Below are positions 1-45,775 of a DNA stretch of 45,775 bases, piece after piece. Location: the IMG/VR virus record IMGVR_UViG_2718218398_000003. One strand, 5' to 3'. The position numbers and the translations under genes were made by a program. Position 1 is the stretch's first letter; every line of letters starts with the position of its first letter. The DNA comes from a virus. Taxonomy: Duplodnaviria > Heunggongvirae > Uroviricota > Caudoviricetes. The notes under the pieces were generated by a model. The model had not been told where the DNA came from. It did not search any database and worked only from the letters and a program-made list of their open reading frames with translations.

Positions 1-249
1 ATGGCGGCAGCACAACCGCTGGTATTTGATGCAGAACTGGACACCGTGCGTGGGCGTCTTGGTAGCGTAAAAGGCGTTAATTACGATACGGCGATGTGGA
101 GTTCGGCAATTAACAGCCGCAACAACGTGACCACTGATGCAGGCGCTGGCTTTGAGCAAACATTGACGGGGCTAACGCTTGGTATCGACAGCCGTTTCTC
201 CCGTGAAGAAAGCAGCACAACTCAGGCGGGTGTGGTCTGGACGTTCTGA
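1..249 (+). CDS. C-terminal fragment of an autotransporter-type outer membrane protein (5' end outside window); host flank
   Basis: ORF runs in from the window edge and ends ...SSTTQAGVVWTF*, the aromatic-terminal beta-barrel signature of type V autotransporters. It lies outside the prophage boundary marked by the tRNA-Pro fragment. From memory the E. coli proL neighbourhood has an autotransporter gene (yejO); not verified. Confidence 0.5.
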   Translation: MAAAQPLVFDAELDTVRGRLGSVKGVNYDTAMWSSAINSRNNVTTDAGAGFEQTLTGLTLGIDSRFSREESSTTQAGVVWTF

Positions 250-350
250 TAACAGAAAATAAACAGGCCGTGATGTGTCGCGGTCTGTTTATCGAATTAA
301 ATGCAGATATAAAAAAACCAACCGCAATAGGTTGGTTTTCTTGGGATTTT

Positions 351-396
351 TGGTCGGCACGAGAGGATTTGAACCTCCGACCCCCGACACCCCATG
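351..396 (-). other. tRNA-Pro 3' fragment (anticodon loop to CCA, 46 nt); probable prophage attachment core (attL)
   Basis: Reverse complement reads CATGGGGTGTCGGGGGTCGGAGGTTCAAATCCTCTCGTGCCGACCA, with T-loop GGTTCAAATCC, 3' acceptor strand and CCA, matching my recollection of E. coli tRNA-Pro(GGG). The upstream 30 nt (397-427) do not supply a complementary 5' acceptor strand (CGGCACG) or a D-arm, so this is not a complete tRNA gene. Confidence 0.7.
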
Positions 397-611
397 TCAC
401 CGCGCCTGAAACGCTGGAGACCGCGCCATTGCTGGGCTGGCAGGGTGTTTCACTGTGTGCGCAAACAGTGCATAATTCGCAAAATTCACGCTATATACAT
501 CAATGAGTTAAGAGAGATTTTTCCCCACTCCTAAATGGTCAGTTTTTGGAGCATTACTATATTAATAGGTTCCGTCTATAGCACTTTTTGATTTGCTTCT
601 AATATGCTTTT

Positions 612-638
612 CTGTGGATAAGATTTAGTTATCCACAG
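612..638. promoter_or_regulatory. perfect inverted pair of consensus DnaA-box 9-mers (TGTGGATAA / TTATCCACA)
   Basis: CTGTGGATAA-gatttag-TTATCCACAG: 10-bp perfect inverted repeat whose arms are the consensus DnaA box, in an AT-rich region about 200 bp upstream of the 835 ORF. Confidence 0.5.
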
Positions 639-834
639 ACTTATCTCCTAAGTTTCCGAGCAGCTACATGTTTTTTGTTGATTGTTTTATGTTTGGCGTA
701 AAGTCAACAATTACTTCGCTTTTTGACCATTTTAGCCCATTGGAAATTACGATCATCTTCATGTAACCTTCTAAAACTTACTAAGATTGCAGAAGTTAAA
801 GCAACATAGCTCGTAGTTTCTTAAAGGTGATTTA

Positions 835-1602
835 ATGCCACAGCCGGCGCTAAAAGCGAACGAAATCAGCAGTGAATTAATCGATATTCTTGCGGCTCGG
901 AATACGATATCCGAAATGCAATATTTTCGTTATATCAGAGATATAGAAAAGTTGCGCGACAGCGCATCTGAGGACTATCTCAAAGCGTTGGCTAATGGTG
1001 CTTTTGGGCGTAAAGATACTGCAGTTGCATTCTTTGAAGAAGCATTGAAGCATAACAACCTGATCATTGCTCAAAATTATGTAGTTTATCTCAACGATTA
1101 CGGCAGCTTCCGTGAAGTTGAACAAGTGGTAAATCGATTAGTTGAACGTTATAACTCCCCTACGATGCTGTCCCATGCATGGGAAGCTAACTTGTTCTTG
1201 GGGCGTATTGACAAAGCGCTCTACTATGCTGAGAGATTGATAAGTATGGTAGATGAAAAGGAGGCTGAATTGGTTAAGCACCTCGCAGCCACAGCACTGG
1301 CCCAATCCACGACCTTCAAAAGTGCAACTGGAATTACTGATGAAGAACTACAGGATATTGCAAACCGCATAGTGGATATCATGGCTGACCATAAAGTTAG
1401 TCCTGTTGCTATGTCTTTCTGCTCTATCCCTGAAGAGCGTACGTCATCATATGTCATGGCAGTTAATACTGAAGATTCTGATGTTCTCTCTGATATGAAC
1501 TTGGATATAGCATTTTCTCTTGCAGAAAATGAAAGTTTGATTGGAAAACCCTTCAGCGTATGGTTTGAAGGGCGTTTGGAGGAACCTGCGCGTGCCAGTT
1601 AA
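835..1602 (+). CDS. hypothetical protein (255 aa), first gene of att-proximal cargo operon
   Basis: ATG preceded by AGGTGA at 5-nt spacing; 255 codons; predicted mostly helical; no recognised motif; AT-rich relative to phage core. Confidence 0.55.
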   Translation: MPQPALKANEISSELIDILAARNTISEMQYFRYIRDIEKLRDSASEDYLKALANGAFGRKDTAVAFFEEALKHNNLIIAQNYVVYLNDYGSFREVEQVVNRLVERYNSPTMLSHAWEANLFLGRIDKALYYAERLISMVDEKEAELVKHLAATALAQSTTFKSATGITDEELQDIANRIVDIMADHKVSPVAMSFCSIPEERTSSYVMAVNTEDSDVLSDMNLDIAFSLAENESLIGKPFSVWFEGRLEEPARAS

Positions 1603-1975
1603 TAGTTCCGATTTTATCGCTTTCGCAAAAGATTGTGAAAAGCGTAACGACGAAATTGGTTACAGAAACGCTGTCGCACGTGCGTATTATGGTGCTTATC
1701 ACCACGTACTTCCGTGTTTGACCATGGGGCCGAAAGAAAGTCACCAAGGCCTCATTGACTATCTTGTTAACGATGCTTGGAAGGGTAACGAACCTTTTGA
1801 AAAAAGAGACTTAATTGGTTTGGGGTATGCTCTTCAATCGCTTAAGGATCAGAGAATAGTTTGTGATTACAGACTTAACGACACTATTACGCCAACCCAA
1901 TCAAGCACCGCGATTAAGACTGCAGAGAAATTAATCCAGCGTTGCGCTAATATGACCAAGTCTAAAGCGTCCTAA
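1592..1975 (+). CDS. HEPN-like small protein (about 127 aa), second gene of cargo operon
   Basis: Track ORF 1541..1975 begins at a TTG; an in-frame GTG at 1592 with GGAGG 9 nt upstream overlaps the stop of the upstream gene (1600-1602) and is the more likely start. Sequence ...YRNAVARAYYGAYHHVLPCLTMGPKESHQGLIDYL... resembles classical HEPN-domain signatures (recalled, not searched). Confidence 0.5.
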   Translation: MPVNSSDFIAFAKDCEKRNDEIGYRNAVARAYYGAYHHVLPCLTMGPKESHQGLIDYLVNDAWKGNEPFEKRDLIGLGYALQSLKDQRIVCDYRLNDTITPTQSSTAIKTAEKLIQRCANMTKSKAS

Positions 1976-1980
1976 TCCCC

Positions 1981-2008
1981 AAAATTGGCCTCATTTGAGG
2001 CCAATTTT
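1981..2008. terminator. bidirectional intrinsic terminator
   Basis: AAAA-TTGGCCTCA-tt-TGAGGCCAA-TTTT: perfect 9-bp stem flanked by A and T runs, directly after the stop of the 1975 ORF. Confidence 0.8.
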
Positions 2009-2044
2009 ATTATGCATTGTATTTAATTTCACCGTGCGGAAGCA

Positions 2045-2400
2045 TTACCCAATCATATGGTTCCGCGTATAAATTTTCGTTGATTTCGCGTCGCTGTGGG
2101 CTATGAGCCCTTGTGGTCTACTCCCTGTTTATCAAACAAAATGCAGCTAGTGCGCGTATTTTGTGGAATGTGGGGGCGCAGCTCCATCGTCAAATTATTA
2201 CACAAGCCTAACGAATCACGGGGCAATGAAAAGTATGGCTAAGATAGGCAGGTGCGGATACCTCTTTACTGCGTTTGTTATTACGCTCGGTATACGGTGA
2301 ACGATATACGGGCAGGCAACGTTATCGCGACTGTTATCAATAATACGTTTCAGTTTGTCCTCGAACTACATCACAACCGGCTTGAAAACTAATTACTGGA
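2045..2400 (-). pseudogene. 3' remnant of a tyrosine integrase gene (paralogous to the intact int at 3553-4737)
   Basis: Minus-strand translation ending at stop 2045-2047 gives ...QGLIAHSDAKSTKIYTRNHMIG*, clearly homologous to the intact integrase C-terminus ...QGRMAHSDAKSTKIYTKNHIDW...; nucleotide similarity to 3560-3950 continues to about 2400. No intact ORF of 60 aa or more is listed here, so it is degraded. Confidence 0.65.
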
Positions 2401-2458
2401 TTTTGTGCCTCCATAATCATATGATTTAAAATGTTATTTTATAAAAAAGGAGTTGTAT

Positions 2459-3415
2459 ATGACCAATTTGTATAAGTTTATGGGAGCGGATATAATTGAT
2501 AAATTGATGATGGATGAAACACATATAGGAATAAAATTCTCTCATTTACATGAATATAATGATCCCTATGAGTTTTTCCTTACTATTGATTTTAATCGCG
2601 GTTCTGATGAGTTAGCATTTTACAATGAAATGATTGGCATGGTTACAAAACAACCAGCAACTTGTTTTACGAAAAGCCCTGTGATACCACCTATGTGGGC
2701 ACATTATGCAGGTAATTCTTCTGGTTTTGTAATAGAGATTAATGAGGAGAAGTTTAAAAAGTATTTGGATGAAATCGGCTTCCAGGATCATAGTTCAATA
2801 GCAGATGTTGAATATAAAGATTCTCCAGATACAGGTATTGAAGACATTCTGGCGAGAGCATTTCATATCTGTAAACCTCGTTATATCTACTGGCTACAAT
2901 CCTGTATAATGACAGCCGCATATTTGACAAAACAAACTTGCTGGAGTTATGAGCAGGAACGTCGCGTAATAATTAATGAGAAAGCACTTACTAAACTGAA
3001 TGACAATCTTATGCTCCTTCCGGTACCGATTAATTGTATAACTGGAGTTATAGTTGGGCACAAATCAAATGATTTATTAAAGCAGAAAATTCAATCTTTA
3101 GCTAAAAAGGCTAAATGTAGATATTTCGAAATGGTAATAGGAAAAACAACAACTACACCATTTCTTTTATCTCAAAATCTCAAATCACACCAATTTATTA
3201 ATGGCAATATAATACCTGCATCAAGGCAATGTAAAAAATGTTATGAGCCTTTAAACATGGAAAATAAAGTTTGTGGCTGGTGTGGAATTACTAATCATGA
3301 TGTGAAAATGGCAGAGTACCGTAATTCATTTCGAATGATAGCCAACTATGGTGGGCTGGATAAATATATATCATCCATGAATAAGATTACTGAAGAGTAT
3401 AATAAGGGTAAATAA
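2459..3415 (+). CDS. DUF2971-like protein with C-terminal CxxC...CxxC zinc ribbon (318 aa)
   Basis: ATG at 2459 with AAGGAG 6 nt upstream (track start 2453 is a TTG). N-terminal ...LYKFMGADIIDKLMMDETHIGIKFSHLHEYNDPYEFF... and later ...PMWAHYAGNSSGFVIEI... and ...CWSYEQERRVI... fit my recollection of the DUF2971 family; C-terminus has CKKCYEPLNMENKVCGWCG. Very AT-rich. Confidence 0.6.
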   Translation: MTNLYKFMGADIIDKLMMDETHIGIKFSHLHEYNDPYEFFLTIDFNRGSDELAFYNEMIGMVTKQPATCFTKSPVIPPMWAHYAGNSSGFVIEINEEKFKKYLDEIGFQDHSSIADVEYKDSPDTGIEDILARAFHICKPRYIYWLQSCIMTAAYLTKQTCWSYEQERRVIINEKALTKLNDNLMLLPVPINCITGVIVGHKSNDLLKQKIQSLAKKAKCRYFEMVIGKTTTTPFLLSQNLKSHQFINGNIIPASRQCKKCYEPLNMENKVCGWCGITNHDVKMAEYRNSFRMIANYGGLDKYISSMNKITEEYNKGK

Positions 3416-3552
3416 ATTTTATTAATAAATATTGCTTTCTGGACAAGGGAGAAGTTATGGTAAATGGGCATAGAACTGCCTTTTAAATTAAGCTTTACTC
3501 TATGCCTTAGCAACCGTTATTGTCAGTCAAAATAAAGTGGAGAATTTAATAA

Positions 3553-4737
3553 CTAACCGGTTTTAATTTCTCCATGAGGGACAACAATCCAATCTATATG
3601 ATTTTTAGTATAAATTTTAGTAGATTTCGCATCGCTATGTGCCATTCGTCCCTGCGGATCAATCCCTTGTTTATCAAATAGGTGAGCTGCCAAAGCTCTT
3701 ATTTCATGGAATGTAGGTCTTTGTTCCATTGCTAGATGATTGCATAGTCCGAGTTTGTCTCGCACGGAAGAGAATGACCGACTCAAATAATCTGGTGCAA
3801 CTTGAGTTGGGTGCGAAACCTCTTTACTGCGTTTAACATGCCGTTCTGGGATTCTATGAACGACAAAGGGACTGGCCACATTGTCACGGCTATTGTCAAT
3901 TATCCGTTTCAATTCTTCACCAATTGGTATTGCAACATGTGATGCCTCCTTTTTTTGTACTTTTTGCCTATGGATGTATAGTGTACCATATATGCCATTT
4001 TGTGGTTGTTCGAACCAAACACATCCACATAAACCGTCTTTAGGTTCGCGAATTGAGTAACGGATTCGCGATACTTCGAGTCGTGCATGTGTAGTCTGCA
4101 ATGCTAGGTCCATTGCTGTTCTTAACCATGGTGCAGCGGCCTGCCTGATAGCTATAAAATGCTCGAGTGACAGGCGCCGTCTTTTCTTCTCATCAGTCCT
4201 ACGCATTTTTTTTCTGATGGCCGGGTTATCCTGCATTAGTGATTCATCGACCGCATAAGAGAACAACTTTTTAAGAAAGCTGACCTTTCTGTTCTGCACA
4301 TTTGCGGATGCGCTGGCATGATATTTGTTGATGTAGGCATTAACGTGTTCAAGTTCGATATCGCATGCCGGAACATTTACGAAAAACGCTTTTACGCGTA
4401 GAGCGTCATTTTTCCAGTCATCTAAGGTACTCTGGGAAGGTCGTTCGTCTTCGATAATTCTGGCCATTATGTGATCGACATGTTCAGCAAATGGTTTTGC
4501 TTCTCCGGTGACCCCGCCAGATTCTCTAATAAGATTATCCACTGATGGGTATAATTCTGATCGCATCCTCAGGTTGTACTCTCTGGCGATTGCAACGGCT
4601 ATTGCCCGATCCTTACCTATATTTTTCTTTTTTCCGGTAATAAGTGTGAATTTATAAACACCTCGATCTTTATCAAAAACCAGATAATCAGGAAGATGTC
4701 TGTATTCTTTTTTACGTGGCCTTGCCGCCATGGTCAT
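3553..4737 (-). CDS. int: tyrosine site-specific integrase
   Basis: 394 aa; C-terminal catalytic region with ...HEIRALAAHLF...RMAHSDAKSTKIY... (conserved H, R and Tyr nucleophile of lambda-family integrases); adjacent to excisionase. Confidence 0.93.
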   Translation of the reverse strand: MTMAARPRKKEYRHLPDYLVFDKDRGVYKFTLITGKKKNIGKDRAIAVAIAREYNLRMRSELYPSVDNLIRESGGVTGEAKPFAEHVDHIMARIIEDERPSQSTLDDWKNDALRVKAFFVNVPACDIELEHVNAYINKYHASASANVQNRKVSFLKKLFSYAVDESLMQDNPAIRKKMRRTDEKKRRRLSLEHFIAIRQAAAPWLRTAMDLALQTTHARLEVSRIRYSIREPKDGLCGCVWFEQPQNGIYGTLYIHRQKVQKKEASHVAIPIGEELKRIIDNSRDNVASPFVVHRIPERHVKRSKEVSHPTQVAPDYLSRSFSSVRDKLGLCNHLAMEQRPTFHEIRALAAHLFDKQGIDPQGRMAHSDAKSTKIYTKNHIDWIVVPHGEIKTG

Positions 4738-42600: not shown

Positions 42601-42886
42601 CCATTCGATGACATTTGTTTCAGGTGGTTCCAGTGGTGCTCCGGGAAGTGGATCACCTGATTATTCTAAATACAGTGTTAACACTTCTTCTGCAGGCGCT
42701 CATACGCACTCTGTATCGGGTACTGCTGCAAGCGCAGGTGCACACGCACATACTGTAGGTATTGGTGCGCATACGCACTCGGTTGCGATTGGTTCACATG
42801 GACACACCATCACCGTTAACGCTGCTGGTAACGCGGAAAACACCGTCAAAAACATCGCATTTAACTATATTGTGAGGCTTGCATAA
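39659..42886 (+). CDS. stf: side tail fibre protein (Stf) with long Ala/Ser/Thr-rich repeat region and His-rich C-terminal repeats
   Basis: 1075 aa; N-terminus [30 protein letters not shown]... like lambdoid Stf; central low-complexity repeats (...[11 protein letters not shown]...); C-terminal repeated ...[20 protein letters not shown]... motifs; followed by tfa. Confidence 0.9.
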
Positions 42887-43470
42887 TGGCATTCAGAATG
42901 AGTGAACAAGCACGGACCATAAAAATTTATAATCTGCTGTCCGGAACTAATGAATTTATTGGTGAAGGTGATGCATATATTCCGCCTCATACAGGTCTGC
43001 CAGCAAACAGTACCGACATTGCACCGCCAGATATTCCAGCTGGCTTCGTGGCTGTTTTCAACAGTGATGAGTTATCGTGGCATCTCGTTGAAGATCATCG
43101 GGGTAAAACGGTTTATGACGTGGCTTCCGGCGACGCGTTATTTATTTCTGAACTCGGTCCGTTACCGGAAAATGTCACCTGGTTATCCCCGGAAGGGGAG
43201 TTTCAGAAGTGGAACGGCACAGCCTGGGTGAAAGATGCAGAAGCAGAAAAACTGTTCCGGATCCGGGAGGCGGAAGAAACAAAAAACAGCCTGATGCAGG
43301 CAGCGAATGAGCATATTGCGCCACTTCAGGATGCTGTAGATCTGGAAATCGCAACGGAGGAAGAAAACTCGTTGCTGGAAGCCTGGAAAAAGTATCGGGT
43401 GTTGCTGAACCGTGTTGATACATCAGTAGCACCGGATATTGAGTGGCCTGCTGTCCCTGTTATGGAGTAA
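42886..43470 (+). CDS. tfa: tail fibre assembly protein (Tfa)
   Basis: 194 aa; [54 protein letters not shown]... classic Tfa signature; start overlaps the stf stop. Confidence 0.9.
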
Positions 43471-43573: not shown

Positions 43574-44361
43574 TTAAGCATCACGTATTGCCAACCTGAT
43601 TTTTGACTGATACCAATTGGGGCCTTCTGCAATTATTTCTTCCTCAACATGCATGATGGGATGCATTTCAATTTCAGAGTTTTTGACTTTTAGATCTAGT
43701 CCATATTTTTTTGAAATTTGTAAAACTTCATTTTTGAAATCCTTATCTGCGAAAGGTGAAATCCTTATTTCTTCCAACAGATTATTAAGAGATACAGGGA
43801 CTAGTTTTCCCTTTACAGGTGGAGTGTTAAAGGTATTCTCTTGAAAAATAGCTCTAAACTCTTTTTCGTGTTCGAAAGATGGTCTCTTGTTAAAGAATAC
43901 ATCTGATTCTGGATTGTATTGTTTTATCCAGAAATTTTTGACGTATTTTACGTGTTTTAATTGTAGTTTGTTTAGATTATTATTTTCAAGTTGGCTTTGG
44001 AGGTTTTTTTCTTTGATTTTATGACAACGCCTTTAGCGGGGTTTTTACAATACAGCTTCCACATAGCTTCAGATTCATGTTCGTTACAATGCCAGCAACT
44101 TATATATGTCCTCTCGCTTATTTCCTTAAGTGTCTTTAAATTGAATGCCATGAAAGGCTCTAAGTCCATGCCGGCACCATGAGTAGCGCATAGTTTTTCC
44201 TGTGTCTCAATGAATTTTTTATAGCCAGTATGTCCCCAAGCAAATTCACCTTCGAACGGATCTTCAAAATTTTTTGCTGAGCAAAAAAATAAAGCATTTT
44301 GTTCGAGTAACATAGAGAATTTCTCTATGTCAAGATATCGCCATATATACTCAGTGTGCAT
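43574..44361 (-). pseudogene. DUF2971-like gene disrupted by a frameshift in an A7 tract (paralogous in family to 2459-3415)
   Basis: ATG at 44361 with AGGAG 5 nt upstream; N-terminus MHTEYIWRYLDIEKFSMLLEQNALFFCSAKNFEDPFEGEF... and ...CWHCNEHESEAMWKLYCKNPAKGVVIK fit DUF2971. This frame stops at 43972, but a second frame is open without stops from 44032 to 43574 and continues with ...HEKEFRAIF... The frames switch at AAGAAAAAAACC (about 44003-44011). Confidence 0.55.
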
Positions 44362-44572
44362 GATAGCTCCTTGCAATATAACTATTTCTATCTGTTCATT
44401 TGTACTTAAAAAGGATTGAGTAGCCCGAACAGTTCTATCCGTAAATATACCAGATAGAAGAGTTGTACAATAACAAATCCTCCGTATAAGAACCAGCCAT
44501 AATAGTCTGGTTCTTAAGGTTTTTTTGTTCGAGGGGTTTTAACCTACGATTCGTCCCCATATCGGCGATAAA

Positions 44573-45775
44573 TTAGGCTTGTACCAACGCTTCTGTTTCT
44601 GTGAGTGAAATCTGATAGCGTTTTACTGCCTCAGCAAAGGCGTGCGCGGCATCTGCATTTGATACCATATATTCTTCAGTTACCCCTGTTTGAGAATGGA
44701 AAGTAATATTTCCATAAATGCAAATAGGGATTTGGTAGTTGTCTTTAAAACGACGGTCTGGTGAGCCATTCTTATTCGTTTTCGCCCATGTATAACCATC
44801 TATGCGTGAGTCACTGGGAACACCTTCTTCCTCATGGAATCTTAGATATTCTGAACTAATTTGTAATTCGCGTAAATCAATCAGAGCGAATGCTCCATCG
44901 GCTCGTGGTATGACTGCAACTCCAGGATAAAGCAAAATATCGTCTCCATTTGCATTTTCAAACCTCATCGCACGCCCTGTAAATTGAATGAGATCCGTTG
45001 AACTAAAATCAAAGGTAACTGGGTGACGATTAACAGACCGGGTTGCTAATGTTCTTTCAGCAAACTGGTCTGTAGCTTTATCTGCAGTAATATCCCATTT
45101 TTTGACACTCGATTTTAACATATCAAATGCATGGACCATCGCTGCATATGCGCGCTGTGAAGCATCACTGCTCTCGAATGTTATGGCTATTTTTGTGCTG
45201 TCTTCCCATGAAACTAGGCGAGATATCTCAGCTTGGGTTAGGGGGAGTAGTGTCTCAAGTTCTGCGATGCGTCGTTTGTAAAACCAACGGAATAGACTTG
45301 ATTTGCGTCGAGCCAGCTCGCTTTTTTGTTTTGATTCTTCGGCAAGAGCCTCTTGAAGATCTGCTTTTATCTCTGCTCTTTGTTCTCGTGCTTTAGCAAT
45401 CAAATCTCGTAAAGGTAAAAGGGAGGTACTTGTAAGGACTTCTACCGAAGCGCTGGATATTTCATTCATGCCAGCTACAGGCATATATATTTTAGCGTTC
45501 GATGGTGTGTTTTCTGGAGATGACCCAGACCCCAAATGAGGTTCTGTAGGGGCTGGATTTAATGGATTGGTAACTGAGTATCCATCATCATAGGGCAAGG
45601 TAGGTGTAGTATAAGATAAGCCTGTGCCCGGTAATCCGACAGTTGCTCTAACCCCTTTTTTACCAACATTGACAGTTGCGCCAGGCATGCCAATGCTTGC
45701 ACTTATTCCACGCTTGCCAATGTTGAGTCGAACGCCAGGAAATAAAGTAAAGGTTTGTCTGAAACGAAGAGACAT
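44573..45775 (-). CDS. DUF4236-domain protein (400 aa); start codon at the window edge
   Basis: N-terminus MSLRFRQTFTLFPGVRLNIGKRGISASIGMPGATVNVGKKGVRATVGLPGTGLSYTT matches the DUF4236 signature as recalled; remaining 340 aa has a predicted coiled-coil segment and no recognised catalytic motif. Confidence 0.65.
   Translation of the reverse strand: MSLRFRQTFTLFPGVRLNIGKRGISASIGMPGATVNVGKKGVRATVGLPGTGLSYTTPTLPYDDGYSVTNPLNPAPTEPHLGSGSSPENTPSNAKIYMPVAGMNEISSASVEVLTSTSLLPLRDLIAKAREQRAEIKADLQEALAEESKQKSELARRKSSLFRWFYKRRIAELETLLPLTQAEISRLVSWEDSTKIAITFESSDASQRAYAAMVHAFDMLKSSVKKWDITADKATDQFAERTLATRSVNRHPVTFDFSSTDLIQFTGRAMRFENANGDDILLYPGVAVIPRADGAFALIDLRELQISSEYLRFHEEEGVPSDSRIDGYTWAKTNKNGSPDRRFKDNYQIPICIYGNITFHSQTGVTEEYMVSNADAAHAFAEAVKRYQISLTETEALVQA

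What the first reader, a model, noticed from the sequence alone, without database searches (positions are those of the whole stretch)
351..440. att core is a tRNA-Pro 3' fragment with flanking short direct repeats; the intact tRNA should lie at the other prophage end
Only the 3' 46 nt of tRNA-Pro are present, abutting the host autotransporter gene, so the complete tRNA reconstituted by integration is expected beyond the right edge of the window. Next to the core, ACCGCGCC occurs twice in direct orientation about 22 bp apart (roughly 399-406 and 421-428), possibly integrase arm-type sites. The integrase is unusually far from this core (3.1 kb) because of the intervening cargo.
Basis: partly seen in the sequence, partly recalled or inferred. 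Interest (0 to 1): 0.4.

Follow-up and report, generated by a model that had tools for sequence, protein, structure and literature searches.

The report
Prophage attachment junction in tRNA-Pro gene
This is the ordinary left-hand junction of a lambda-like prophage that inserted into the E. coli proL (tRNA-Pro) gene, leaving the displaced 3' end of the tRNA next to yejO; the short repeats beside it are not conserved and are probably chance.

Summary
Window 351-396 is an exact copy, on the minus strand, of the last 46 nt of E. coli proL tRNA-Pro(GGG). It starts in the anticodon stem-loop and runs to CCA. It is not a complete tRNA by ARAGORN or Rfam.

Evidence that it is a prophage att junction:
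- In near-identical genomes the intact proL gene lies 769-777 bp beyond the right edge of the window, next to yejM.
- The reconstructed empty site is contiguous in 4826 of 5426 complete E. coli genomes.
- The same 46 nt occur in the attP regions of the phage genome records Flotzy, Eeyore and Phi06_2987, whose integrases are about 76% identical to this one.

The att reading and the prediction about the other end are therefore supported.

The ACCGCGCC repeat is real, at 399-406 and 420-427, but it is not above background. About 7% of 90-nt tiles in this window hold such a repeat. It is also lost in every relative except one copy in APEC O78. It is not a credible arm-type site. Better candidates are conserved TTTTTCCCC-type motifs, an IHF-like site and an inverted repeat at 451-526.

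The 3.16-kb gap between core and integrase is real. It is a variable cargo slot: 136 bp in Flotzy, Eeyore and strain CX21, and 1.3-1.6 kb in two other relatives. It holds a fossil integrase fragment and a candidate defence gene. This is ordinary, already-known biology.

The parts
1..249 (+). 3' end of the host yejO-type autotransporter pseudogene. This is chromosomal flank, not part of the prophage.
   Evidence: Pfam Autotransporter beta-domain match. Annotated as yejO / autotransporter in matching genomes. The window lineage lacks about 630 bp of the gene at about position 220.
311..350 (-). Host proL trailer with a hairpin plus T-run (AACCAACC-TATTGC-GGTTGGTT-TTTTT in tRNA sense). It reads as the original proL terminator, left behind with the displaced fragment.
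   Evidence: Read directly from the sequence. The hairpin is visible in the cmscan alignment. It is contiguous with the intact tRNA in unoccupied sites. The simple terminator scan did not flag it.
343..396 (-). The 54-bp identity block shared by the two prophage ends (the att core in the broad sense). It is 8 nt of trailer plus the 46-nt tRNA-Pro 3' fragment (351-396).
   Evidence: Exact 46-nt match is unique in the window. The second copy lies in the intact tRNA of related genomes. The same 46 nt occur in the attP of Flotzy, Eeyore and Phi06_2987. Alignments.
389..395 (-). Anticodon loop of the tRNA (anticodon GGG at 391-393). This is the inferred 7-bp strand-exchange (overlap) region.
   Evidence: Position derived from the ARAGORN call on the intact gene and the sequence. 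The crossover placement is an inference from the anticodon-centred class of tDNA att sites (PMC4383910). It was not tested.
397..533 (.). Phage-derived, int-proximal attP arm.
   Evidence: About 80% identical to the DNA between core and int in Flotzy, Eeyore and Phi06_2987. The similarity ends at about 530.
399..427 (+). They are not conserved and are judged to be chance or a decayed tRNA-like remnant.
451..470 (.). Conserved inverted repeat CACTGT-N8-ACAGTG in the arm. It is a candidate protein-binding site of unknown partner.
   Evidence: ACTGT...ACAGTG is kept in all relatives aligned.
498..510 (+). IHF-like site CATCAATGAGTTA. It fits ATCAANNNNTTR of the IHF consensus (consensus recalled from my own knowledge).
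   Evidence: Kept in the window, L002, Flotzy, Eeyore and CX21. Phi06_2987 has ATCAATGGGTTA and APEC O78 has ATCAATGACTTA, both of which still fit the consensus. Binding was not tested.
518..526 (+). TTTTTCCCC, the candidate arm-type integrase site in this arm. Three similar tandem copies lie in the other arm, outside the window, next to the intact tRNA.
   Evidence: Kept in the four attP sequences aligned; APEC O78 has a shifted variant, TTTCTCCCC. TWWTWCCCC occurs 7 times in L001 against 2.4 expected, and 3 of those lie within 170 nt of the two junctions on the same strand.
534..3552 (.). About 3.0 kb of cargo inserted between the attP arm and int. It holds a TPR-like 255-aa gene (835-1602), a 127-aa gene (1592-1975), a fossil integrase C-terminus (2013-2410, minus strand) and a DUF2971 / PDC-S31 gene (2453-3415).
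   Evidence: Pfam, PADLOC, PHROGs, tblastn of Int against the cargo, gap comparison.
3553..4737 (-). Lambda-type tyrosine integrase (394 aa) with an N-terminal arm-binding domain.
   Evidence: Pfam Arm-DNA-bind_1 at E 1.3e-5. Full-length alignment to lambda Int structures 5J0N and 1Z1G at E 1.7e-12, with the PTFHEIR motif aligned. PHROG 1 integrase. 76.5% identical to the Flotzy and Eeyore Int.

Best explanation
Window 343-533 is the int-proximal junction of a lambda-like prophage of about 46 kb integrated into the proL tRNA-Pro(GGG) gene. That gene lies between yejO and yejM in E. coli.

The phage attP carries its own copy of the last 46 nt of the tRNA, from the end of the anticodon stem to CCA. 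It also carries 8 nt of trailer and its own terminator hairpin. Its lambda-type tyrosine integrase (3553-4737) recombined this with the chromosomal gene. Strand exchange is inferred to occur within the 7-nt anticodon loop (389-395).

The result is as follows. The host 5' half of proL, joined to the phage-supplied 3' part and terminator, forms an intact gene at the far end, about 770 bp past the right edge of the window. The original host 3' part and its terminator are left here as a non-functional fragment fused to the phage arm.

The arm (397-533) is the part that should bind the integrase N-terminal domain and bending proteins. The conserved candidates are TTTTTCCCC (518-526), which has three tandem relatives in the other arm, an IHF-like site (498-510) and an inverted repeat (451-470). 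The ACCGCGCC repeat is not among them.

About 3.0 kb of accessory DNA was later inserted beyond the last conserved arm element, between the arm and int. This slot varies within the phage family. The insertion need not disturb the att site.

Shown: the fragment, the second copy with the intact tRNA in near-identical genomes, the empty site, the same core in phage genome records, the integrase type and the variable cargo. Inferred: the crossover position, which motifs bind which protein, and whether this prophage can still excise.
For: - The exact 46-nt tRNA 3' fragment is unique in the window. No tRNA is called there.
- The intact tRNA-Pro(ggg) sits next to yejM, 769 or 777 bp beyond the window end, in genomes 99.9% identical to the window ends.
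- The reconstructed empty site is contiguous at 100% identity in many genomes and covers at least 80% of the query in 4826 of 5426.
- The Flotzy, Eeyore and Phi06_2987 records carry the identical 46 nt, flanked by homologous arms, on the 3' side of an integrase 75-76% identical to this one: 136 nt from it in Flotzy and Eeyore, 1565 nt in Phi06_2987.
- Strain CX21 has the cargo-free arrangement at the same yejO site.
- The phage-supplied terminator next to the regenerated tRNA is picked up by the terminator scan.
- The integrase has a lambda arm-binding domain and aligns over its full length to lambda Int.
- proL is already listed as a prophage site in E. coli O121:H19 (PMC8767318).
- A 3' fragment with an anticodon-centred site is the commonest tDNA island geometry (PMC4383910).
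Against: - The second core copy and the intact tRNA are not in the window itself, so they are inferred from near-identical genomes.
- No experiment shows excision.
- The candidate arm-type motif was derived from the same sequences that were then used to count it, so its enrichment is post hoc.
- No Xis family was recognised for the small ORF upstream of int.
Confidence: 0.93

Rival explanations
1. The ACCGCGCC direct repeats are functional arm-type binding sites for the integrase.
For: - The two copies exist 21 bp apart, right next to the core.
- The integrase does have an arm-binding domain.
- Shuffles of 397-440 alone give such a repeat in only 0.8% of cases.
Against: - Both copies are replaced in Flotzy, Eeyore, Phi06_2987 and CX21, which share the exact core and a 76%-identical Int. 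L002 alters both copies and APEC O78 alters the second.
- 7% of 90-nt tiles in the window have an equivalent repeat.
- No copy is visible in the 200 nt of the other arm aligned.
- The position, 3-31 nt from the core, is closer than arm sites usually lie (my own knowledge of lambda attP).
Confidence: 0.04
2. The 3.1 kb between the core and int is a separate small integrated element (a tandem island or satellite remnant) rather than cargo of the prophage. On this reading the prophage's own att lies just downstream of int.
For: - The interval holds a frameshifted C-terminal third of a same-family integrase at 2013-2410.
- It is AT-rich accessory DNA.
- Tandem arrays at tDNAs are known (PMC4383910).
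Against: - There is no further core copy or tRNA-like sequence anywhere between 397 and 3553, even with 3 mismatches or a short-word BLAST.
- The arm next to the core (397-533) is the homologue of the arm that directly abuts int in Flotzy, Eeyore and CX21.
- The cargo proteins belong to PHROG phage families.
- Other relatives carry different cargo in the same slot.
- A past tandem state followed by deletion remains possible as history, but today there is one att pair.
Confidence: 0.05
3. 351-428 is a second, complete (hybrid) tRNA-Pro gene rather than a dead fragment.
For: - PGAP annotates a 78-nt tRNA-Pro at exactly this position in 2020N21-246-1 and APEC O78.
- The phage side supplies an acceptor-like strand: TGGCGCG pairs with CGTGCCG if two G-U pairs are allowed.
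- It also supplies GCGC at the D-stem position and 4 of 5 anticodon-stem pairs (read from the sequence).
Against: - ARAGORN calls nothing at this junction in the window or in any relative.
- Rfam tRNA is absent in the window and reaches only 18.3 bits against a cut-off of 29 in L002.
- The window version does not fold as a cloverleaf, and its z-score is 0.16.
- The D arm lacks a proper stem and the conserved GG (read from the sequence).
- The Flotzy arm has no acceptor-like strand.
- No promoter is evident on the minus strand.
Confidence: 0.03

Closest known systems
tDNA-integrating prophages and islands as catalogued by Islander (regenerated tRNA plus displaced 3' fragment, anticodon-centred 'A' sites), for example P22 at thrW or HP1 at tRNA-Leu
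   Same: - A tyrosine integrase.
- The attP carries the tRNA 3' part from the anticodon loop to the 3' end.
- The intact gene is regenerated at one end and the fragment is displaced to the other, in the same orientation.
- The empty site is found in relatives.
   Different: Nothing in kind. The target here is proL. int lies at the fragment end rather than next to the regenerated tRNA, and is separated from the arm by 3 kb of cargo.
Escherichia phages Flotzy (PP925827), Eeyore (PP925821) and Phi06_2987 (KM389287), and proL prophages of E. coli (for example O121:H19, PMC8767318)
   Same: The 46-nt core is identical, both arms are homologous, Int is 75-76% identical, and DinI-type genes lie next to the other arm.
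   Different: - The window phage has about 3.0 kb of cargo between arm and int, against 0 in Flotzy and Eeyore and 1.4 kb in Phi06_2987.
- The core-proximal 50 nt of the arm are diverged.
Bacteriophage lambda attP / Int (heterobivalent integrase with arm-type sites, IHF, Xis)
   Same: - The Int aligns over its full length to lambda Int, including the arm-binding domain.
- Three tandem candidate arm motifs lie in one arm and one in the other. This recalls lambda P'1-P'3 (my own knowledge).
- There is an IHF-consensus site in the arm.
   Different: - Only about 25% protein identity to lambda Int.
- The target is a tRNA gene with a 46-54 bp identity rather than lambda's 15-bp core.
- The triple motif lies in the arm distal to int.
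- None of the binding sites has been tested.

Membership tests
tDNA integration junction (Islander-type island or prophage end) | A fragment identical to the 3' part of a tRNA gene, not itself a complete tRNA | tested here: met
   46/46 identity at 351-396. No tRNA by ARAGORN or Rfam.
tDNA integration junction (Islander-type island or prophage end) | An intact cognate tRNA gene in the same orientation at the other end of the element | tested here: met
   Not in the window itself. tRNA-Pro(ggg) is on the minus strand 769 or 777 bp past the window-end equivalent in L001 and L003.
tDNA integration junction (Islander-type island or prophage end) | A tyrosine integrase gene inside the interval | tested here: met
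   3553-4737. Pfam, PHROG and PDB matches.
tDNA integration junction (Islander-type island or prophage end) | An unoccupied site in related genomes that equals the two flanks joined at the core | tested here: met
   The synthetic empty site is found contiguous at 100% identity. At least 80% coverage in 4826 of 5426 genomes.
tDNA integration junction (Islander-type island or prophage end) | The same core within attP of a free (non-integrated) element | tested here: met
   Exact core in the Flotzy, Eeyore and Phi06_2987 phage records, on the 3' side of int.
tDNA integration junction (Islander-type island or prophage end) | Demonstrated integration or excision at this site | not testable with these tools
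   Needs PCR or induction experiments.
Lambda-type heterobivalent integrase system | An N-terminal arm-type DNA-binding domain plus a catalytic domain with the R..HxxR..H..Y residues | tested here: met
   PF09003 at E 1.3e-5. Residues 6-361 align to lambda Int 3-325, with PTFHEIR aligned to PTFHELR. AHSDAKSTKIY at the C-terminus was read from the translation and compared with lambda GHKSDTMASQY from my own knowledge.
   Not conserved in relatives. At chance frequency.
Lambda-type heterobivalent integrase system | Arm-type sites: the alternative candidate, TTTTTCCCC-type motifs | tested here: inconclusive
   Conserved in the four attP sequences aligned (one in the int-proximal arm, three tandem in the other arm); APEC O78 has a variant of the int-proximal copy. 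3 of 7 genome-region hits lie at the junctions. Binding was not tested and the motif is post hoc.
Functional tRNA gene | A cloverleaf recognised by tRNA finders at or above threshold | tested here: not met
   ARAGORN gives 0. No RF00005 hit at E<=10. The minimum-energy fold is not a cloverleaf.
Tandem array of islands at one tDNA | [quoted passage not shown] | tested here: not met
   There is only one core copy in the window. The second integrase is a fossil C-terminal piece. The att-like relic at about 44484-44549 is degenerate.

The most novel reading that the evidence does not exclude
The core-proximal phage arm (397-428) may be a decayed copy of the 5' half of tRNA-Pro. On this reading, this phage lineage once carried, or still mimics, a whole tRNA gene at attP. 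The displaced junction would then form a tRNA-like hybrid, which PGAP annotates as tRNA-Pro in APEC O78 and 2020N21-246-1. That hybrid might be transcribed, or might serve as a secondary integration target.
Probability: 0.06. Interest if true: 0.3.

Novelty: already known. Interest (0 to 1): 0.1.

Why it matters
The finding matters little beyond annotation. It fixes the left boundary of a proL prophage at 396/397 and predicts the right boundary about 0.8 kb past the window. It also shows that the 'tRNA-Pro' PGAP calls at this junction in some genomes falls below the ARAGORN and Rfam tRNA thresholds and is best read as a hybrid junction. Finally, it identifies the interval between the att arm and int of this phage family as a variable cargo slot. 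Here that slot holds a candidate defence gene (PDC-S31 / DUF2971). The mechanism itself is textbook site-specific recombination into a tRNA gene.

Tried and rejected
- I looked for a second or third core copy inside the window, using the 46-mer with 3 mismatches and a short-word BLAST of both junctions. The only result was a degenerate relic at about 44484-44549. That relic also occurs in a prophage at another locus (strain M8, near ibsA/yegL) and, in a related form, in Gifsy-2. I therefore rejected it as a current boundary of this prophage.
- I tested whether 351-428 is a real tRNA, because PGAP annotates one there in two relatives. ARAGORN, Rfam and folding all say no.
- I considered the cargo as an independent element. 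I rejected this because there is no att between it and int and the arm is homologous to cargo-free relatives.
- The simple terminator scan did not flag the host hairpin at 311-350, although the hairpin plus T-run is plain in the sequence.
- Literature searches for 'proL' with word-start matching returned only noise such as 'prolific'. No paper on Flotzy or Eeyore was found. The 2002 Williams paper on tRNA sublocation classes is not held, so that classification is cited through the Islander paper and my own knowledge.
- No Xis family was recognised for the 69-aa ORF upstream of int.

Full report
**What is in the sequence**

Window 351-396 reads TGGTCGGCACGAGAGGATTTGAACCTCCGACCCCCGACACCCCATG. 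Its reverse complement is the last 46 nt of E. coli tRNA-Pro(GGG), from C31 at the end of the anticodon stem, through the anticodon loop, variable loop, T arm and acceptor 3' strand, to CCA.

- The match is exact and unique in the window even with three mismatches allowed. No shuffle produced a match.
- ARAGORN finds no tRNA anywhere in the window.
- The Rfam gathering scan finds only an IS009 sRNA far away.
- A permissive Rfam scan of 300-480 gives no RF00005 hit at E<=10. It gives only a 14-bit tRNA-Sec match against a cut-off of 47.

So this is a fragment, not a gene. To its left lie two hairpins and the end of a yejO-type autotransporter pseudogene (1-249).

**Is it an att junction, and is the tRNA at the other end?**

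The first 3.6 kb of the window match 51 complete E. coli genomes over at least 80% of their length. The best match is CCUG 73778 (ST131) at 99.9%.

- In that genome the same lambdoid prophage runs from this junction to a DUF4236 gene, a DinI-like pseudogene, then an intact tRNA-Pro and yejM. ARAGORN calls that tRNA as Pro(ggg).
- The last 5.8 kb of the window match NZ_CM151387.1 and three other genomes at 99.9%. In NZ_CM151387.1 the tRNA-Pro lies 777 bp beyond the base that corresponds to window position 45775. In CCUG 73778 it lies 769 bp beyond.
- The two junctions share 54 bp: the 46 nt plus GGGATTTT of the trailer.
- I built a synthetic empty site from window 1-396 joined to the tRNA 5' half and the yejM flank. 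It is found contiguous at 100% identity in many genomes and covers at least 80% of the query in 4826 of 5426 genomes.

His refuting conditions are not met.

**The free-phage attP**

The 394-aa integrase at 3553-4737 is 76.5% identical to the integrases of Escherichia phages Flotzy and Eeyore, and 75.5% identical to that of Phi06_2987.

- All three phage records contain the identical 46 nt, with homologous DNA on both sides.
- In Flotzy and Eeyore the order is tail fibre, DinI, UmuD-like gene, attP, int. This is the circular permutation of the prophage order seen here.
- The phage side next to the tRNA 3' end carries its own hairpin plus T-run, which the terminator scan picks up. The regenerated proL therefore keeps a terminator.
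- The integrase has the lambda arm-binding domain (Pfam PF09003).
- It aligns over residues 6-361 to the lambda Int structures, including the HxxR motif. The C-terminal H...Y motif is present in the translation.

**Mechanism**

I conclude that this is a standard tyrosine-integrase insertion into a tRNA gene of the anticodon-centred class.

In the Islander survey, 3760 of 3919 islands leave a 3' fragment and 2083 have anticodon-centred sites (PMC4383910). By analogy, strand exchange is placed in the 7-nt anticodon loop, window 389-395. This step is inferred, not shown. Everything to the right of it at this junction is phage DNA.

**The proposed arm-type sites**

I built a composite attP for the window phage from the other arm in L003, the core, and window 397-596. 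I aligned it with Flotzy, Eeyore and Phi06_2987. A second alignment added CX21, APEC O78 and 2020N21-246-1.

- The 50 nt next to the core, where the ACCGCGCC copies sit, are the least conserved part of the arm.
- Flotzy has ACTGCGGT and ACCCTTGT at these positions.
- 2020N21-246-1 has the host-like ACGGTGCGCC and then GCCGCGCC.
- APEC O78 keeps the first copy but changes the second.
- Within this window, 7% of 90-nt tiles have an 8-nt or longer direct repeat within 40 nt, as do 3.3% of shuffles of 351-440.

I therefore reject these repeats as arm sites.

The conserved elements lie further out:
- An inverted repeat, CACTGT-N8-ACAGTG, at 451-470.
- An IHF-consensus match, CATCAATGAGTTA, at 498-510.
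- TTTTTCCCC at 518-526.

The other arm has three tandem motifs of the same type: TTTTACCCC, TTATTCCCC and TAATTCTCC in the window-type phage, and TTATTCCCC, TTTTTCCCC and TAATTCCCC in Flotzy. The pattern TWWTWCCCC occurs 7 times in the 49.9-kb locus L001 against 2.4 expected. Three of those hits lie within 170 nt of the two junctions, on the same strand. These are my candidates for arm-type sites. The motif was defined from the same data, so the enrichment is only suggestive.

**The long distance to int**

The gap from the core end to the int stop codon varies within the family:

| Genome or phage | Gap (nt) |
|---|---|
| Window, 2020N21-246-1 | 3156 |
| Phi06_2987 | 1565 |
| APEC O78 | 1282 |
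| Flotzy, Eeyore, chromosomal prophage of CX21 at the same yejO site | 136 |

Similarity to the cargo-free arm ends at about 530, so roughly 534-3552 is inserted cargo. It holds:
- a TPR-like 255-aa gene and a 127-aa gene, both in PHROG families of unknown function;
- a frameshifted fossil of the last 135 or so residues of a same-family integrase at 2013-2410 (tblastn E 4e-16), which PGAP annotates as a 'recombinase' pseudogene;
- a DUF2971 gene that matches the PADLOC candidate defence family PDC-S31 (E 4e-22).

The fossil integrase suggests that an integrase module with its downstream cargo was swapped in by recombination. It could also mean that a past tandem pair of prophages was fused by deletion. 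Either way, no att-like sequence lies between the cargo and int today.

**The hybrid 'tRNA'**

PGAP annotates a 78-nt tRNA-Pro at this very junction in 2020N21-246-1 and APEC O78.

The phage arm does look like a decayed 5' half. TGGCGCG (CGGCGCG in APEC O78) can pair with the acceptor 3' strand. GCGC sits at the D-stem 3' position. Four of five anticodon-stem pairs can form.

Against this:
- ARAGORN calls none of these junctions.
- Rfam tRNA scores 18.3 bits against a cut-off of 29 in 2020N21-246-1 and nothing in the window.
- The window version does not fold as a cloverleaf.
- The Flotzy arm lacks the acceptor-like strand.

I treat the PGAP calls as unsupported by ARAGORN and Rfam, and keep a small probability for the more interesting reading.

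**Comparison with what is known, and verdict**

proL is already named as a prophage site in E. coli O121:H19 (PMC8767318). The geometry is the commonest one for tDNA integration. Free phages with the same attP are in GenBank. Nothing here departs from the lambda or P22 paradigm except the size of the cargo between the arm and int, and that varies within the family.

The finding is correct in its main point, wrong on the arm sites, and ordinary. Interest is 0.1.

Noticed in passing
window 44484-44549 (intergenic, between the 134-aa ORF at 43972-44376 and the DUF4236 gene at 44573-45775): A fossil att-like segment. It is a 28/29 copy of the phage-type terminator hairpin that sits next to the regenerated tRNA, followed by a degenerate copy of about 30 nt of the tRNA-Pro 3' end. 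The local alignment score is 67 against 14.9 +/- 2.2 in shuffles. The same relic occurs in a prophage at a different locus in strain M8, so it now travels as part of phage DNA. It may record past capture of flanking DNA or a collapsed tandem array.
   Followed up: partly
L006 (Gifsy-2, NC_010393.1 about 44226-44340, downstream of sseI): Salmonella phage Gifsy-2 carries a relic of the same kind: arm-like CCCC motifs, a terminator hairpin and about 36 nt of the tRNA-Pro 3' end at about 90% identity (score 116 against 14.9 in shuffles). I recall that Gifsy-2 does not integrate at a tRNA-Pro gene, but I did not check this here.
   Followed up: partly
window 2013-2410 (minus strand): A frameshifted fossil of the C-terminal 135 or so residues of an integrase of the same family as the live one at 3553-4737. 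This points to an int-module replacement or a fusion of tandem prophages.
   Followed up: yes
window 2453-3415 (+) and 43972-44376 (-): DUF2971 genes that match the PADLOC candidate defence family PDC-S31 sit at both ends of the prophage. The left one is full length and the right one is truncated (strain M8 has a full-length gene at the right-hand position). The neighbouring DUF4236 gene (44573-45775) is a PHROG family of unknown function.
   Followed up: partly
L002 3351-3428 and L009 3955-4032 (equivalent to window 351-428): RefSeq/PGAP annotates the hybrid junction as a 78-nt tRNA-Pro in strains 2020N21-246-1 and APEC O78. The feature summaries show tRNA-Pro under the match in other O78-like genomes too. 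ARAGORN does not call it in either strain, and Rfam, run only on 2020N21-246-1, scores it below threshold. In 2020N21-246-1 the junction carries 9 more host-like nucleotides (ACGGTGCGC), so attP alleles differ in how much of the tRNA they copy.
   Followed up: yes
window about 220-223: The yejO autotransporter of this lineage lacks about 630 bp that are present in APEC O78 and CX21, removing most of the beta-barrel domain. The 1-249 ORF is therefore the tail of a pseudogene.
   Followed up: partly
window 43229-43427 (+): A full-length Rfam IS009 sRNA hit (209 bits, E 5e-51) overlaps the 3' part of the tail-fibre assembly gene (42886-43470).
   Followed up: no
L003 (NZ_CM151387.1). For NZ_CP076305.1, the hit coordinates.: These genomes keep both att junctions of this prophage but have lost most of it. 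In L003 the replication-region genes are fused to a truncated tail-tip gene. In NZ_CP076305.1 the two ends lie about 16.5 kb apart. The proL prophage is therefore decaying in place in some lineages.
   Followed up: partly
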